A DNA stretch of 64,000 bases from Pecten maximus (taxonomy: Eukaryota): assembly GCF_902652985.1 (NCBI RefSeq), contig NC_047025.1:27342001-27406000 (forward strand), in the 5' to 3' direction. Made by a program: the position numbers. This document shows, piece after piece, positions 1 through 42,000 of this stretch (position 1 is the stretch's first letter; every line of letters starts with the position of its first letter).

Positions 1-3000
1 TGTTCTAATAATTCCTAGCTATGGTGATATGACAGAACGTATTCCACCTTTTCCCTCCACGACTTGAATCCTTTCTGTGACGCAGGGATCCATCATTAGA
101 AAGCTCCAAGCTTTGCTAATCAATTTGATGATACATATGTACATTATTTTAAATTTTAGGAAGCATGTACAGCACTGCTGATGGATGGGGTCGTGGGTCA
201 AAGGAGTTTTGGAATGAGGGATCAGTAAGGGTTAGGGTGTGGAGTCATTTTAAAGCTGATTTGATATACTCCGCAGTGTCTTTATTGGGAAATACTACAA
301 GGAAACGGCATTCCCATCACCTATCCACGCGTAAAGGAGGCTCAATGGACATTGACAATGGAATGATTTACGTAACGGTAAATATCTTGCTTTCATTACC
401 GTTAACTGTTTTTATTTAGTATTTGAAAAAAACAACTTCTGTTATAAAGACAGATGATTATGTTTCATTTCGTTTTGTGTAATTGACGAGTAAGGAGTAA
501 GATATATATTGTTTTAAGATTCTTTAGATGGGATTTTCAGCTCAAAAGACTCGACTTTGTTTAGTATGAAAAGGGTAGGTTCCTAAAACCATTTTTTTGT
601 AAAAGCATACCTGAATATGTCATTTCTTTTACAGTTATGAAATGCAAAAGGTCTATAGGACCCGTAATTTACTTTTTACACTACTGAACTGGGTAGGGAA
701 GTGGTGGTAGAGTGAAGTTACAAAAGTTATGTTTAAACATTCTTAGAGATATTTATGGAAAAATAGACCTTCGGACATACACTTTCTTGATAATAATAAG
801 TTAATATCACATAATACAATATACATAGGACCTGAAAAGGTTAGCGGTAACCTGCCCGACCACGCGAGTTTTCCCTGGGTAATCCGGTTTCCTCCTACAT
901 TAAGATCACTCGCACGCTTACATCCGGGCTAACAAGCGTGATTAGTATAAGTTAGTATCTAGCTACCAAAACACCCTAAGAGGACTGGCTGTGCAATTCA
1001 TTAACTATGTAATTTATTAGCTTTCTCTTTATAACTGTCTACAACAGTAAAAGCTTAATAACATATATGGTTTTAGTACCAGTTTATATTTAATGGAATT
1101 TTGTAATTTTCTGGATGCAATTAAATATAATTACCTTCTTGTGACTATATCACTGTTAGTGATTATCTCCCTTCTCACAGTTCATTATATCACAGATCTC
1201 TGATTAAATATACAATAGATATATAAATTCTGTTATCTATGTAGCGTAAGCAAACATAATTTTTTATTTACTTATTTTTATTTAATACTTGAAATTTGTT
1301 TGGTACAATGTACACATGGAGGAGACCGGTAATACCATCTATACCTATCCTTTGTTTTTGTATTACATGTAACTTCTGTTTTTCTATTGTTTTGAATGAA
1401 TGTGTGAGTGAATACTTGTTGATTATTTTATTACATACAAATCATCATTTATAGGCCTTACAGAAAGATGCTGTGCTTTTACTTCACTAAAGATTAATGC
1501 TACTTTTATGAATCTTAGCAATGCCATTGGACTATTTAGTAAATTATACCTTATATTTATGTATTGGAATGAAGTATGTGGTTCCTCTCGCCGTCTTACT
1601 CTTGTATAAATATATTTTTATACCTTCAATACTTTTCAATTATACTTGAGCATCAAAAGAGGGAGTGTAACATCTTTCTGTCAGGTCTAACCTGAAGTTT
1701 TTCTGGAAGAAGGCTTATATAGGCTTAGCCTGTTGTCTGATTCTTTTAACAATGCTGTATTTGCATGCATAAATATTTGTATGTATTATATATGTATTGT
1801 TAATAAAATATTTTGAAATTAGTATAAGTTGATATAACTTGTTTCGCAATAGTTGTAAAATAGATAAAGTTTATATTATATATATAATAGTTGGAGCAAA
1901 TTAGTATTAATTAATGTTTTATATGATAATTCAAAAGATATACCTGGTGATAGCCTTCAATGCAACATGGTTAGAAGTAGTCACTTAAATGTTTATGTTC
2001 TCCGTTAACGTAAATGATAATATTTTGTAAATGTAATAAGCAAAATTGCCGATATTTTTGTGTGATTAACTAGTTGTATGGTCTCTATTCACTAACCTAC
2101 CTAACCTACCTAAAATGAAACTGTAATACACGGAAAGGTGACCAAGTAGTATAGGATACTTGCTGTATGACAACACAAACCTACTCTGCGTTTTCCTGCT
2201 GGACACTGGCAATACTGATCTGTGATAGGGTCATCCTTGTTGTATGTATTGGATACTATCCAAAGATTGTATTTGTTCTGGGATTTGTGGCGAGAACGTA
2301 ATTTTGTATTTTTGTCACTTGATTAGGCAGTAAGGATATCTGAAGGTCACCATTATCGGTTAGGTGTATCCCGAGTCTGGCTGATTTGATGAGCGCTATA
2401 TCTGGCGGTTTCCGTATCAAGCTCTGGAAAAAAATGTTTGTACTTGTCTTCCACTAAGAATTATTCTTCAAGTCCAAAGAGAGCCTAGCTCTTCTTGCTA
2501 GTTTATAGTCTTTTGCTGCACGGGCAATAGACGGATTGTGTATAGGACCACGGATAGCATTCAGGCAGGCAGTAGTAACTCCAACAAGCTGTTCTATAAC
2601 GTATTTCAATAAAACAATAAAAAGATAACTGCTCTTTAACAATTTCCGCAGTTTAAATCCTCCGTAGTAACTTTCTACGTCTCAGCATGCTTTTGTACAA
2701 TGTCTGTTTGATATTTCTGTGTCATGCTGTTGCTAACCTGACCGCAAGAATGAAGGCATGTGTGATTCAAAATCAGATGACTTGATGAGGTCAGAAACAT
2801 CACCGATCTCTCTGTCAATAACAATGTTATCACTATTATGTAGCCATACTTTCAGGTTTGCCACAGACTAAAAATAAAAAAAGAATGAAATCTTGGCGTC
2901 CTTTCATTGCCATAAAAGAGCCCTATTGTGTCCAGAACATAACCACCTGGAAGCACAAAACTCACCAACTGTAGATAATACCGCGTTTGTTTGCCGCAAT

Positions 3001-39000: not shown

Positions 39001-42000
39001 CATTAAGTTGATTGTATTTTGCGTGTGATAATTTTATTTACTGACCTTTGCAGTATTTGTCATATATGTAATACATTTTTTTTTTTTTTTTTTTTTTTTT
39101 TTGTAATACATCAACTGTCAGTTAACCTGGTCACGTGGCAGCGAAATCTATAACAAGCCTTTATTATCTTACCTGTAAATATTACCGTACCATCACCAGA
39201 ATTATCGTGCCTATTGGGAACATACAGTTTGACTGACGTTTCATTATACTTGTAAACAACGCCTCCATACACTCCTGATTTGTCATCATCACGTTGAGAG
39301 GATCCAAGTCCGGGGAATACGAAGTTTGTGTCACTACCGCTGATTGGCCTAACTTGGATATCAACCTTGATGGGAACTTGTGTGATGTTGAGTTGTATGA
39401 TGGCCTCTGAGTGGACAGATTGTGCTTTAAGTTTGACGTAACTGCTGACGTAATTTGGCGGTTGGAGACACGTCCCACATTTTATAGTTGCGTCTGATGA
39501 TCAAAACGAAAACAGTATGGCATCATAGCGACAACACATGTAAACATCTATCGGTATCATAGCAACAATACATGTACATATATATCGGTAACATAGCAAC
39601 AGAAAATGTATACATCTATCGGTATCATAGCAACGACACATGCACACATATCTCAGCATCATAGCCACACAAAATCGGTATCATAGCAACGACATATGTA
39701 CGCGTCTATCGGTATCATAGCGACAATACATGTACACATCTATCGGTATCATCTTAGCAACACATGTACACATCTATCGGTATCATCTTAGCAACACATG
39801 TACACATCTATCGGTATCATAGCAACGACATATGTACGCGTCTATCGGTATCATAGCGACAATACATGTACACATCTATCGGTATCATCTTAGCAACACA
39901 TGTACACATCTATCGGTATCATCTTAGCAATACATGTACACATCTATCGGTAGCATAGCAACGACACATGTACACATCTATCGGTATTATAGCAACAACT
40001 CGTGTACACATCTTTTGGTATCATAGCAACAACACATTGACACATCTATTGGTATCATAGCAACAAGATATGTACACAACCATTAGTATCAAAACAACAA
40101 CGCATGTACACATCTATTAGTATCATATCGACAACACATGTACACATCTATCGGTATCATAGCAACAACACATGTCGCATCTATCAGTATCATAGCAACA
40201 GTAAATATACACGTTAACCATCATATCAACAATGAATACTACAGAAAATATACATGTTAAGACAGCCATGATGTATGTAAAATGTATTTTAAGTTAGGAG
40301 AAGGCTAACTAAGTTGTAAGAACTTGTGCCTAATCCTTTTTTTTGTCATTTTAAGGCAATGCAATATATCTAAACCAATACTACATAATCTTGATATACT
40401 ATACATATTTATTTCATTTTAGATAAGTTTCAGTGTTGTCTTACTGTCTTTTCAGTCCTCTACTTACGGCCTTTGGCGTATAGGGCAACACACATTATTA
40501 CGTAATTAAAAGTGTCAAAATTAAAGAAATGGCATAGAGATGTTGCTGATCGAAAATTAGAGAAAAAAAAAGTGCAGTTATTAATATTAGATAAATAATG
40601 GTAGTTGTTTACCTGTATGATAAATAGAGGCTATAAAGACACTGTAGAAGGCCACTTTGTCCATAATCCGAGAGCTCCTGTTGGAACAATCTGTTTCCTT
40701 GAGTTGACTAGCTTTATATCTCCTATATTGATAAACTTTCGTCCATCTACTCACCTTATGTGATAAACCCCGTCCAAATTGTCACTGTGTCTCTGTAATC
40801 TACTTCTGACTCGAGTACTGGCGATTGGTGATAACATTGTCATCAGAAATGTCATTCTACTTTAACCCCGTTTTTATTGGAAGTCGTGAGCCATCTACTG
40901 TATAGTAGTTATATGTGATATTTAATATTGCTGATTTATCTAGGAGATTACTGGCCTGATTTATTGAAAATATTTCATCTCATTTTCAATTTTTTAACAC
41001 ATGTTAAACTCACTCAGTCTATAAAACATGGTAATATCATAATACATTGCCTACTGGAAGTTTAGACATAATGCTGAGGATTAAGTTAGTCCGACGGCAT
41101 GCATAGTTTTTGTATGACATGTAGTTTCGCAAAAGAAATGGGGATATGAATCAAAAAGAGGAAGCAAACGACAAACACCTGACTTTTAGTTCAAAACCTC
41201 CCCAGTACCTTACTAGAACTACAATCGTGAAAATGATATTAAGTAATCGTAAAAATAAAGATTATGTCAGAAAACATGCATTATGGCGTTTCAGTAATAT
41301 CCCATTGCCTTAATTCACATTAGAATGTATCAATTTCAAAGCCGTTACACTCAATCAATTTATTTTCACACGATTTCGTTTAATTATCCATACATGTACG
41401 TGAGTTTAAGTTAACACCCCAGAGTTAAGAGGAAACCCTCTGAAATAACATCATCAATGTGTGTTTCAGCATTGAATGTCGAGATAACTACTGTAGTTTA
41501 AAACCTACCAAAATAGAAACTAAACAGGAAGGATGTATCCTTACAGAGAGTCCTACATGTCATTGGAACGTAAATTACATTAATTAATTCGACGTTCATA
41601 CTATAGCAGTTTGTTTAAAGGGTATTTAAGGCGAGCATTATTTATAACTTAGTTACATTTTTGTTTTTTATATGATTAGCATTTAGCCTAATTAACCCAG
41701 CTGTACAACTGGGACTTGTCACTACGCTCGTAAGTAGTCCTCTCTTTACTTACAGTCATCGTAAGGACTGTCTGTCTAACTAATTGTATATGGAGTCTCA
41801 CTATGAAATTCTCATGAAAACTTTTGATAGGAAACAAAATATCCCAATTCATTTTAAAGATATATGTTTTTGCAAAGTCGCGACGGCAAAATCGAGAAAG
41901 TAATTTCGTGTGTTCGCCATCGCGTATACGACATAAACGTCTGGCTAAAGGAGCCTCTGTCAGTCGGCATGGGAAATATACGGTAGGGAAATAGTCGATT

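What the first reader, a model, noticed from the sequence alone, without database searches (positions are those of the whole stretch)
160..40664. Mirror-image gene order: inverted duplication of a [membrane protein + ApoD lipocalin] module
Seen: the order is A(+) ApoD1(-) | ApoD2(+) ECI(+) B(-). A and B are paralogs with matching exon boundaries, the two ApoDs are paralogs with identical intron phases, and each receptor-like gene converges on an ApoD gene. Inference: one old inverted segmental duplication centred between 12.2 and 15.4 kb, with ECI gained or lost on one arm. Retaining both pairs raises the speculative possibility that a secreted lipocalin and an orphan surface protein are functionally linked (e.g. 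ligand carrier and uptake partner).
Basis: partly seen in the sequence, partly recalled or inferred. Interest (0 to 1): 0.65.

Follow-up and report, generated by a model that had tools for sequence, protein, structure and literature searches.

The report
Old mirror-image gene duplication in scallop
In this king-scallop DNA a two-gene unit, a surface glycoprotein gene and an apolipoprotein-D-like carrier gene, was most likely copied in mirror image long ago; this is an ordinary kind of genome change, and nothing yet shows that the two proteins work together.

Summary
The window is Pecten maximus (100% matches to NCBI models). The gene order is A(+) 160-9249, ApoD1(-) 12185-10544, ApoD2(+) 15385-17690, a crotonase-fold gene (+) 21693-23931, and B(-) 40664-29644.

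The two ApoD genes have four coding exons each, of 114/125/92/224 and 114/125/95/224 nt, with intron phases 0, 2, 1. A and B share three exon boundaries with the same phase.

A and B are sister clades (support 93/92). All four genes have orthologues in other scallops on one contig per species, so both duplications predate the split of the four scallop genera sampled.

Rate-normalised protein depths are compatible with one age: A 3.2 and B 3.1 lie between ApoD1 2.4 and ApoD2 4.9.

One old inverted segmental duplication is the most economical reading (about 0.6) but is not proven. Gene order in relatives could not be read.

Nothing supports a lipocalin-receptor link. A and B carry an unnamed three-repeat beta-sandwich head on a mucin-like stalk; this head is widespread among animal extracellular proteins.

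The finding is ordinary. Exons were never joined.

The parts
160..9249 (+). Gene A (NCBI LOC117338115), 3' part only: residues 240-526 of a 526-aa type I membrane glycoprotein. Coding exons: 160-377, 4347-4602, 5002-5082, 6406/6409-6489, 7348-7413, 7647-7685, 8801-8904 (TM), 9232-9249 (stop TAG).
   Evidence: Exact matches of P0005 to the window. Last exon. tblastn map. NAGNAG acceptor confirmed by isoforms X1/X2.
160..377 (+). A exon that pairs with B exon 35941-35730 (end of beta-sandwich repeat 2).
   Evidence: 41% identity over 80 aa, E 1e-18. Same start phase (1) and end phase (0).
4347..4602 (+). A exon that pairs with B exon 35163-34884 (beta-sandwich repeat 3).
   Evidence: 46% identity over 97 aa, E 8e-28. 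Same phases (0 at the start, 1 at the end). 100% match to P0005.
10544..12185 (-). ApoD1 (XP_033755210.1, 184 aa). CDS exons 12185-12072, 11517-11393, 11030-10939, 10767-10544 (stop TGA).
   Evidence: Sequence read. Pfam Lipocalin_2 1.8e-7 on exon 2 and Lipocalin 1.7e-6 on exon 4. P0020 maps at 100% on exon 1 and 98.6% on exon 4; its exon-2 HSP (60%) runs on upstream of the exon, and exon 3 gave no HSP on this arm.
12186..15384 (.). Axis of symmetry: 3.2-kb head-to-head spacer between the two ApoD start codons. It holds a 16-bp x 35 tandem array at 14032-14593.
   Evidence: TRF. Only short chance-level inverted repeats. The upstream 300 bp of the two genes are no more alike than controls: 64 of 500 shuffles and 122 of 500 random windows reach the observed score.
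15385..17690 (+). ApoD2 (XP_033755603.1, 185 aa). CDS exons 15385-15498, 16544-16668, 17059-17153, 17467-17690 (stop TAA).
   Evidence: Sequence read. Pfam Lipocalin_2 9e-7 and Lipocalin 3.9e-7. P0008 maps at 100% on exons 1, 2 and 4 and 94% on exon 3, whose HSP runs past the exon start.
21693..23931 (+). Exons 21693-21826, 22515-22693, 22979-23114, 23679-23931. About 233 codons, ending in -SKL.
   Evidence: Pfam ECH_1 on three exons: 4.9e-8, 2.6e-4, 8.4e-3. Best PDB matches are enoyl-CoA hydratase/isomerases. Boundaries read. No remnant on the left arm.
29644..40664 (-). Gene B (XP_033755388.1 'mucin-19-like' is a 5'-truncated model). 11 coding exons: 40664-40613 (signal peptide), 39493-39173, 38587-38453 (GC donor), 38114-38010, 36948-36841, 35941-35730, 35163-34884, 34188-34003, 33601-33392, 31872-31742 (TM), 29988-29644 (Pro/Asp-rich repeat tail, stop TAG).
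   Evidence: P0001 exact matches. The full-length Argopecten orthologue P0002 maps to all upstream exons. Boundaries read.
35730..35941 (-). B exon paired with A 160-377.
34884..35163 (-). B exon paired with A 4347-4602. It is 8 codons longer.

Best explanation
An ancestral tail-to-tail gene pair was copied once, in inverted orientation, next to itself. The pair was a surface glycoprotein gene on one strand and an ApoD-like lipocalin gene converging on it. The copy produced A> <ApoD1 | ApoD2> <B, with the break and fold-back point between the two ApoD 5' ends.

This happened before the four scallop genera sampled here diverged. Since then:
- All non-coding similarity and all synonymous signal have decayed.
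- ApoD2 changed quickly soon after the duplication and then became highly conserved.
- B acquired, or A lost, a long repetitive cytoplasmic tail.
- A crotonase-fold gene came to lie, or remained, only between ApoD2 and B.

Shown: the gene models, the paralogy, the shared exon boundaries, the minimum age and the presence of all four genes on one contig in relatives.
Inferred: that it was one event and not two.

Protein roles are inferred from family only. ApoD1 and ApoD2 are secreted carriers of small hydrophobic ligands. A and B are type I surface glycoproteins with a three-repeat beta-sandwich head on an O-glycosylated stalk, most likely recognition or adhesion molecules.
For: - Mirror order and orientation.
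- The only sense-strand ORF similarities between the arms are the 2 A/B and 4 ApoD exon pairs, 6 of the 36 pairs listed.
- A and B clades are sisters at 93/92 among 21 family members, each clade at 100/100.
- ApoD2 is a 100/99 clade and ApoD1 is set apart at 83/84. Each holds four scallop species.
All four genes are on one contig in Argopecten (73,140,430 bp) and in Ylistrum (4,061,834 bp). ApoD1, ApoD2 and B are on one contig in Mizuhopecten (1,166,382 bp).
- The two Mizuhopecten ApoD records have consecutive ids, OWF55135 and OWF55136.
- Depth from the duplication node divided by depth of the Pecten/Argopecten/Ylistrum split is 3.2 for A, 3.1 for B, 2.4 for ApoD1 and 4.9 for ApoD2 (from the trees).
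- There is a precedent for inverted duplication of a lipocalin gene pair, the mouse Mup1/Mup2 pair giving class B Mups (PMC2533699, passages read).
Against: - dS cannot be used. Pooled pS is 0.906 for ApoD (182 codons) and 0.774 for A/B (155 codons), both at or above saturation.
- Paralogue/orthologue distance ratios differ. With Kimura distances ApoD is 4.11 [3.10-5.89] and A/B is 2.59 [2.17-3.11]. With gamma distances they are 4.79 [3.46-6.96] and 2.85 [2.35-3.59]. Under a strict clock ApoD would be the older duplication.
- The symmetry is broken by the crotonase gene.
- No non-coding homology remains. The only blastn hits between the arms are ApoD exons 3 and 4.
- A's 5' half lies outside the window.
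- Order and orientation in the other scallops were not seen, only co-residence on a contig.
- The root of the ApoD tree is unresolved, because the amphipod outgroup has a very long branch.
Confidence: 0.6

Rival explanations
1. There were two or more independent local duplications. One was an inverted tandem duplication of ApoD alone. The other was a separate duplication or transposition of the membrane-protein gene that happened to land, inverted, beyond ApoD2. The mirror image is then partly coincidence.
For: - The pooled paralogue/orthologue ratio is larger for ApoD than for A/B, and the intervals barely overlap.
- The crotonase gene and transposon debris lie between ApoD2 and B: DUF3504 fragments at 18940-19300 and a short repeated element at 20044-20157.
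- The A/B family has several scattered paralogues in scallops on other chromosomes, P0027, P0034 and P0040, so the family does move and duplicate.
Against: - It needs two events, and the second must give exactly the mirrored orientation and side. That is roughly 1 in 8 arrangements on the right of a fixed A/ApoD1 pair (my own count, not a call).
- Per-lineage depths for A and B fall between those of ApoD1 and ApoD2.
- The higher ApoD ratio is accounted for by the long ApoD2 stem, 0.24 against 0.05 for ApoD1.
Confidence: 0.27
2. The pair is a functional cassette. The lipocalin is a ligand carrier and the neighbouring surface protein is its docking or uptake partner. Selection has kept each carrier next to its partner since the duplication.
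For: - Both pairs are retained, and all four genes stay on one contig in other scallops.
- ApoD1 of Pecten, Argopecten and Ylistrum has a fifth, probably unpaired Cys near the C terminus. ApoD2 and Mizuhopecten ApoD1 lack it. From recall, human ApoD and NGAL use a free Cys for covalent partners.
- A and B belong to no characterised family, so a receptor role is not excluded.
Against: - Linkage between neighbours over this range of species is expected without any function.
- The closest Tegillarca relative of A/B (KUTeg_019999, contig 43,992,338) is on a different contig from the Tegillarca ApoD hit (KUTeg_012202, contig 45,661,362).
- B's immediate neighbour is the crotonase gene, not ApoD2.
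- The known lipocalin receptors I recall (STRA6, LMBR1L, megalin, SLC22A17; basigin for ApoD) have unrelated architectures.
- No expression or binding data were available.
Confidence: 0.07
3. The mirror image is an assembly artefact, a falsely duplicated or inverted haplotig.
For: None found.
Against: - The arms differ by 22-59% at the protein level, and synonymous sites are saturated.
- Intron sizes and content differ between the arms.
- Orthologues of each of the four genes exist separately in three other species.
Confidence: 0.01

Closest known systems
Inverted duplication of the mouse Mup1/Mup2 lipocalin gene pair that founded the class B Mup array (PMC2533699, passages read)
   Same: A unit of two neighbouring genes that includes a lipocalin is copied in inverted orientation beside the original, giving head-to-head lipocalin genes.
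   Different: The mouse event is recent: near-contiguous non-coding homology remains, one copy became a pseudogene, and retroviral elements flank the breakpoints. Here the event is ancient and no non-coding homology is left. All four genes are intact and conserved in four scallop genera. The co-duplicated neighbour is not a lipocalin.
Apolipoprotein D and the ApoD-like lipocalins (human ApoD 2HZQ, sandercyanin, crustacyanins, insecticyanin, bilin-binding protein)
   Same: A profile of the scallop proteins hits human ApoD best (E 3.6e-46), then sandercyanin (about 1e-38) and crustacyanins (about 4e-24). The Pfam Lipocalin and Lipocalin_2 domains, the G-x-W motif and four conserved Cys are present.
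   Different: The ligand is unknown. There are two diverged paralogues (about 70% identity). ApoD1 has an extra Cys at a different place from the free Cys of human ApoD (that position is recalled).
N-terminal module of 'von Willebrand factor D and EGF domain-containing protein-like' and other multidomain extracellular proteins
   Same: The whole ~370-residue head of A/B aligns as one unit to residues 32-412 of the Ptychodera flava protein P0044 (E 6e-61), which continues with D8C, VWD and EGF domains. In other proteins the same unit stands beside Sushi, TSP1, VWA, cadherin or EGF domains. Of the 30 proteins scanned, 16 had such domains.
   Different: A and B are short type I membrane proteins in which the head sits directly on a mucin-like stalk with no other named domain. 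Whether vertebrate VWDE itself carries the module was not tested.
Crotonase superfamily, peroxisomal delta3,delta2-enoyl-CoA isomerase type
   Same: ECH_1 matches on three exons, PDB hits to enoyl-CoA hydratase/isomerases, and a C-terminal -SKL (its meaning as a peroxisomal signal is recalled).
   Different: Isomerase versus hydratase activity was not tested. The gene is a bystander to the duplication.

Membership tests
Lipocalin / ApoD-like | Lipocalin domain detectable by profile | tested here: met
   Exon 2 matches Lipocalin_2 at 31.6 bits (ApoD1) and 29.4 bits (ApoD2), above the 24-bit cut-off. Exon 4 matches Lipocalin at 28.7 and 30.8 bits, above the 23-bit cut-off. The database lists PF08212 and PF00061 for the full records.
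Lipocalin / ApoD-like | Closest solved relative is ApoD rather than another lipocalin clade | tested here: met
   Human ApoD 2HZQ is the best of 46 distinct PDB sequences, at E 3.6e-46.
Lipocalin / ApoD-like | Conserved G-x-W motif and the four disulfide cysteines | tested here: met
   G41, W43, C25, C59, C133 and C184 are invariant in 12 sequences. The pairing of the cysteines is inferred, not shown.
Lipocalin / ApoD-like | Binds a small hydrophobic ligand | not testable with these tools
   No assay was possible.
Single inverted segmental duplication | Each gene's closest paralogue is its mirror partner | tested here: met
   A and B are sisters at 93/92 among 21 family members. ApoD1 and ApoD2 are the only scallop ApoD clusters recovered; that search is limited to proteins sharing exact words with the query.
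Single inverted segmental duplication | Mirrored order and orientation of all genes in the unit | tested here: inconclusive
   Met for the four paralogues. The crotonase gene is on one arm only. A's 5' half is outside the window.
Single inverted segmental duplication | Equal age of the two paralogue pairs | tested here: inconclusive
   dS is saturated. Per-lineage depth ratios are 3.2 and 3.1 for A and B, and 2.4 and 4.9 for ApoD1 and ApoD2. Pooled ratios are 2.6-2.9 for A/B and 4.1-4.8 for ApoD, with intervals that touch or slightly overlap.
Single inverted segmental duplication | Residual non-coding homology or an inverted repeat at the axis | tested here: not met
   Searches found none. This is expected for an old event, so it does not exclude membership.
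Single inverted segmental duplication | Same arrangement in related genomes | not testable with these tools
   Only co-residence on one contig could be seen. No annotated mollusc genomes are on hand.
Crotonase / enoyl-CoA isomerase | ECH_1 fold | tested here: met
   Exon 2 scores 33.0 bits against a 27-bit cut-off. The other two exons score below the cut-off, as expected for fragments.
Crotonase / enoyl-CoA isomerase | Isomerase rather than hydratase chemistry | not tested
   From the sequence and recalled motifs, only one of the two hydratase glutamates appears to be present. This is an inference.
Lipocalin-receptor pair | Physical binding or co-expression of the neighbours | not testable with these tools
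   No expression data and no binding assay were available.

The most novel reading that the evidence does not exclude
The surface glycoprotein and the ApoD-like lipocalin form a carrier-and-docking cassette that was duplicated as a unit and has since diverged into two matched pairs, A with ApoD1 and B with ApoD2. This would give the first partner for an invertebrate ApoD and a first function for a widespread, unnamed three-repeat beta-sandwich module of animal extracellular proteins.
Probability: 0.06. Interest if true: 0.65.

Novelty: new member of a known kind. Interest (0 to 1): 0.25.

Why it matters
As a genome event it is ordinary: an old inverted segmental duplication in which both copies of both genes survived. 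It is a clean example in which the proposed dS test fails and rate-normalised protein depth has to be used instead.

Two by-products may be worth more than the duplication itself:
- The head of A and B is a confidently folded module (pLDDT above 90 over most of it). It has no Pfam family, no sequence relative in the PDB and no convincing fold match. It nevertheless has 459 representative clusters, including bivalve and hemichordate proteins.
- ApoD2 shows strongly asymmetric evolution after the duplication, which would suit a study of lipocalin neofunctionalisation.

If the two neighbours were shown to interact, it would matter for lipid or pigment transport biology in molluscs. There is no evidence for that now.

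Tried and rejected
- dS comparison. Synonymous sites are saturated in every exon. pS is 0.81-1.11 in the four ApoD exons and 0.71-0.83 in the two A/B exons, so no age can be read. There is also no sign of recent gene conversion.
- Non-coding similarity between the arms. The blastn self-comparison found only ApoD exons 3 and 4. The apparent E-box/TATA block in the aligned promoters is not above chance: 64 of 500 shuffles and 122 of 500 random windows reach the score. 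Inverted repeats at the axis are short and chance-like.
- Co-folding of the A ectodomain (residues 22-400) with mature ApoD1. The tool gave 'no answer' (score 0.00, controls not run, my alignments not used). This counts neither for nor against binding.
- Fold of A. The model is good (mean pLDDT 82.4, pTM 0.75), but the PDB fold search gave only 2 matches at E <= 0.001. Both are Pseudomonas pseudaminidase/neuraminidase entries with TM-scores of 0.17-0.20 and rmsd about 18 A. The rest are jelly-roll capsid and similar proteins, so no fold family is assigned.
- A sequence profile of the A/B family against the PDB found nothing (best E 0.64).
- The Atlas search gave one mollusc-dominated unnamed cluster at 0.93. 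The nearest named cluster is H-type lectin at 0.75, below the tool's own threshold for a lead, so it was not pursued.
- Rooting the ApoD tree with an amphipod lipocalin failed because of a branch length of about 10.
- Accession-number adjacency as a proxy for gene order is not consistent across species. A, ApoD1 and B are consecutive in Argopecten. A and B are consecutive in Ylistrum. B and ApoD2 are far from A in Pecten. I use it only for the two consecutive Mizuhopecten GenBank ids.
- Literature. Searches for 'apolipoprotein D' + 'scallop' (14 papers, 10 listed by title and abstract start), 'apolipoprotein D' + 'carotenoid' + 'mollusc' (2 papers) and 'inverted duplication' + 'lipocalin' (5 papers) found no description of this locus. 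Supplements were not seen.

Full report
WHAT THE WINDOW IS. The window has no N and is AT-rich, with 29-39% G+C in the finding's region. It carries spliced animal genes. Exon-by-exon protein searches gave 100% matches to NCBI models of Pecten maximus on a contig of 44,189,035 bp. I never joined exons. Every search with window sequence used a single exon. Wherever a full-length protein was needed I used the public records that those searches returned.

THE GENES. A (+) is LOC117338115. Only residues 240-526 of the 526-aa model lie in the window. Its exons are 160-377, 4347-4602, 5002-5082, 6406/6409-6489, 7348-7413, 7647-7685, 8801-8904 and 9232-9249.

ApoD1 (-) is XP_033755210.1, with exons 12185-12072, 11517-11393, 11030-10939 and 10767-10544. 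ApoD2 (+) is XP_033755603.1, with exons 15385-15498, 16544-16668, 17059-17153 and 17467-17690.

A crotonase-fold gene (+) has exons 21693-21826, 22515-22693, 22979-23114 and 23679-23931. Its protein ends in -SKL.

B (-) runs from its ATG at 40664 to its stop at 29644 in 11 coding exons. The NCBI model 'mucin-19-like' (XP_033755388.1) starts too late. The full-length Argopecten orthologue (631 aa) maps to four further upstream exons. B's cytoplasmic tail is the exon 29988-29644. The long open frame 30830-31942 that follows the TM exon is a 39-bp tandem array inside the last intron.

All 2090 stop-to-stop ORFs were compared with each other. Thirty-six pairs lie more than 2.5 kb apart with E <= 0.01. 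Six are sense-strand exon pairs between the arms: two A/B pairs (41% over 80 aa, E 1e-18; 46% over 97 aa, E 8e-28) and four ApoD pairs (57, 64, 66 and 78% identity). Five are antisense shadows of these, two are internal-repeat hits within A and B, 18 belong to a short repeated element (20.0 kb and 57.5 kb), and five are weak.

The ApoD genes have exon lengths of 114/125/92/224 and 114/125/95/224 nt and intron phases 0, 2, 1. A and B share three boundaries at aligned positions with the same phase, and the phases of the TM exon also agree. A and ApoD1 converge, with 1.3 kb between their stop codons. B converges on the crotonase gene, with ApoD2 beyond it.

Identical lipocalin intron phases are weak evidence by themselves. 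The passages I read in PMC6402760 cite Sanchez et al. 2003 for exon-intron architecture as a phylogenetic signal in this family. That the structure is conserved family-wide is my recollection of that paper, which I did not read.

HOW OLD, AND ONE EVENT OR TWO. Pooled over exons by summing counts, pS is 0.906 +/- 0.027 for ApoD1/ApoD2 (182 codons) and 0.774 +/- 0.041 for A/B (155 codons). Both are at or above saturation. The ApoD value above 0.75 goes with different codon usage: GC3 is 0.43 in ApoD1 and 0.57 in ApoD2. At the DNA level only ApoD exons 3 and 4 still match between the arms (70-75%). Promoters and the axis show nothing above chance.

Orthologues settle a minimum age. Argopecten irradians and Ylistrum balloti have A, B, ApoD1 and ApoD2. 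Mizuhopecten yessoensis has B, ApoD1 and ApoD2. In each species these sit on a contig of one and the same length, and the two Mizuhopecten ApoD records have consecutive GenBank ids. Both duplications therefore predate the divergence of these four genera. From recall, that is on the order of a hundred million years or more.

In trees, A and B are sister clades (93/92; each clade 100/100) among 21 family members, which include a third scallop paralogue and oyster, mussel, ark-clam and unionid sequences. ApoD2 is a 100/99 clade and ApoD1 is separated at 83/84.

I normalised for protein-specific rate by dividing the depth of the duplication node by the depth of the Pecten/Argopecten/Ylistrum split in the same lineage. 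This gives A 3.2, B 3.1, ApoD1 2.4 and ApoD2 4.9. The A/B values lie between the two ApoD values. ApoD2 has a stem five times longer than ApoD1 (0.24 against 0.05), which means fast change soon after duplication.

A cruder pooled ratio of paralogue to orthologue distance is higher for ApoD. With Kimura distances it is 4.11 [3.10-5.89] against 2.59 [2.17-3.11] for A/B. With gamma distances it is 4.79 [3.46-6.96] against 2.85 [2.35-3.59]. This result runs against equal ages under a strict clock, and I report it as such.

Taken together, equal age is compatible with the data but not demonstrated. One inverted duplication of a tail-to-tail pair explains the order with a single event. Two events need a coincidence of side and orientation. 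I put one event at about 0.6. An assembly artefact is excluded by the divergence between the arms. A precedent exists in the mouse Mup cluster, where a lipocalin gene pair was copied in inverted orientation (PMC2533699, passages read).

WHAT THE PROTEINS ARE. ApoD1 and ApoD2 are ApoD-type lipocalins. Pfam Lipocalin and Lipocalin_2 match single exons. Human ApoD 2HZQ is the best PDB hit (E 3.6e-46), followed by sandercyanin, crustacyanins and insecticyanin. The G-x-W motif and four cysteines are invariant.

A and B have no Pfam family, on single exons or on the full public records, and no sequence relative in the PDB. The AlphaFold model of A, built with 46 aligned relatives, is confident: mean pLDDT 82.4, pTM 0.75, and most of residues 30-400 above 90. 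It shows, in order:
- a signal helix;
- three all-beta repeats, at roughly residues 30-150, 155-270 and 273-398;
- a disordered Ser/Thr/Pro-rich stalk (residues 414-483);
- one TM helix.

The repeats are also visible as internal sequence matches. The PDB fold search gave no convincing match.

The head is a widespread module. A profile of six A/B sequences found 459 representative clusters at E <= 0.001, and 98 at E <= 1e-30. Of 20 representatives looked up, 14 carried names: 13 from bivalves (scallops, oysters, mussels, ark clam, unionids) and one from the hemichordate Ptychodera. Of 30 proteins scanned, 16 combine the module with Sushi, TSP1, D8C, VWD, EGF, VWA, cadherin or similar extracellular domains. 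From this architecture I infer that A and B are cell-surface recognition or adhesion glycoproteins. This is inference only.

THE FUNCTIONAL-LINK IDEA. Nothing supports it. Co-residence on a contig across scallops is expected for neighbours whether or not they interact. The closest Tegillarca relative of A/B is on a different contig from the Tegillarca ApoD hit. B's nearest neighbour is the crotonase gene. The co-folding job returned no verdict and is listed only among the things tried. One feature remains a lead: ApoD1 of three genera has a fifth cysteine that ApoD2 lacks.

WHAT STAYED UNCHECKED:
- Gene order and orientation in other molluscs, because no annotated eukaryotic genome collection was on hand.
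- Expression.
- Whether the crotonase gene was gained or lost.
- The part of A outside the window.
- Supplementary files of papers, which were closed.
- Publication of this locus. My three literature searches found no description of it.

VERDICT. The single inverted duplication is the best reading, though unproven. The functional link is unsupported. This is an ordinary kind of event, of low to moderate interest.

Noticed in passing
window 57953-58297 and 58656-59543 (+): Exons of a tyrosinase gene (Pfam Tyrosinase, 2.9e-6 and 9.5e-19), about 17 kb beyond B.
   Followed up: partly
window 30875-31745 (-), inside B's last intron: A 39-bp x 21 tandem array starts right after the TM-exon donor. 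It keeps a 371-aa frame open (VDPEVRHSVSIPK-like repeats), which could be mistaken for a cytoplasmic tail. The NCBI model splices it out and uses the exon at 29988-29644.
   Followed up: partly
window 38452-38451 (-), B intron 3: The only reading that keeps the frame and matches the orthologues uses a GC-AG intron (donor G|GCAAGT). All other introns read here are GT-AG.
   Followed up: partly
window 6404-6409 (+), gene A: A NAGNAG tandem acceptor (cagcag) explains NCBI isoforms X1 and X2, which differ by one alanine.
   Followed up: yes
ApoD1 exon 4, window 10544-10767 (-): ApoD1 of Pecten, Argopecten and Ylistrum has a fifth cysteine four residues before the last one. ApoD2 and Mizuhopecten ApoD1 lack it. 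It may be a free thiol.
   Followed up: no
ApoD1 versus ApoD2 coding exons: pS of 0.91 exceeds the 0.75 expected at saturation. Of 50 fourfold sites, 33 differ by a transversion. GC3 is 0.43 in ApoD1 and 0.57 in ApoD2. The two paralogues have drifted to different codon usage.
   Followed up: partly
window 18940-19300 (-) and 7900-8121 (+): Transposon debris. DUF3504 fragments lie between ApoD2 and the crotonase gene (Pfam 2.3e-5 and 3.7e-4, below the cut-off). In an A intron there is an ORF with a mariner-like transposase motif; it has no Pfam hit and the name is from recall.
   Followed up: no
window 20044-20157 and 57564-57648: A short element of about 80-110 bp is present at both places in both orientations, at 80-100% identity. 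It looks like a MITE.
   Followed up: no
window 14032-14593, 26632-28475, 32053-32876, 39522-40200, 60091-63124: Large tandem arrays with periods of 16, 22, 13, 34/68 and 25 bp. The first sits on the symmetry axis, and the second lies between the crotonase gene and B.
   Followed up: no
A/B family outside the window (P0023, P0027, P0034, P0040): Argopecten has at least four further paralogues of the A/B family. One is on the same chromosome-sized contig as A and B, and the others are on two other contigs. The head module has no Pfam model although it has 459 representative clusters.
   Followed up: partly
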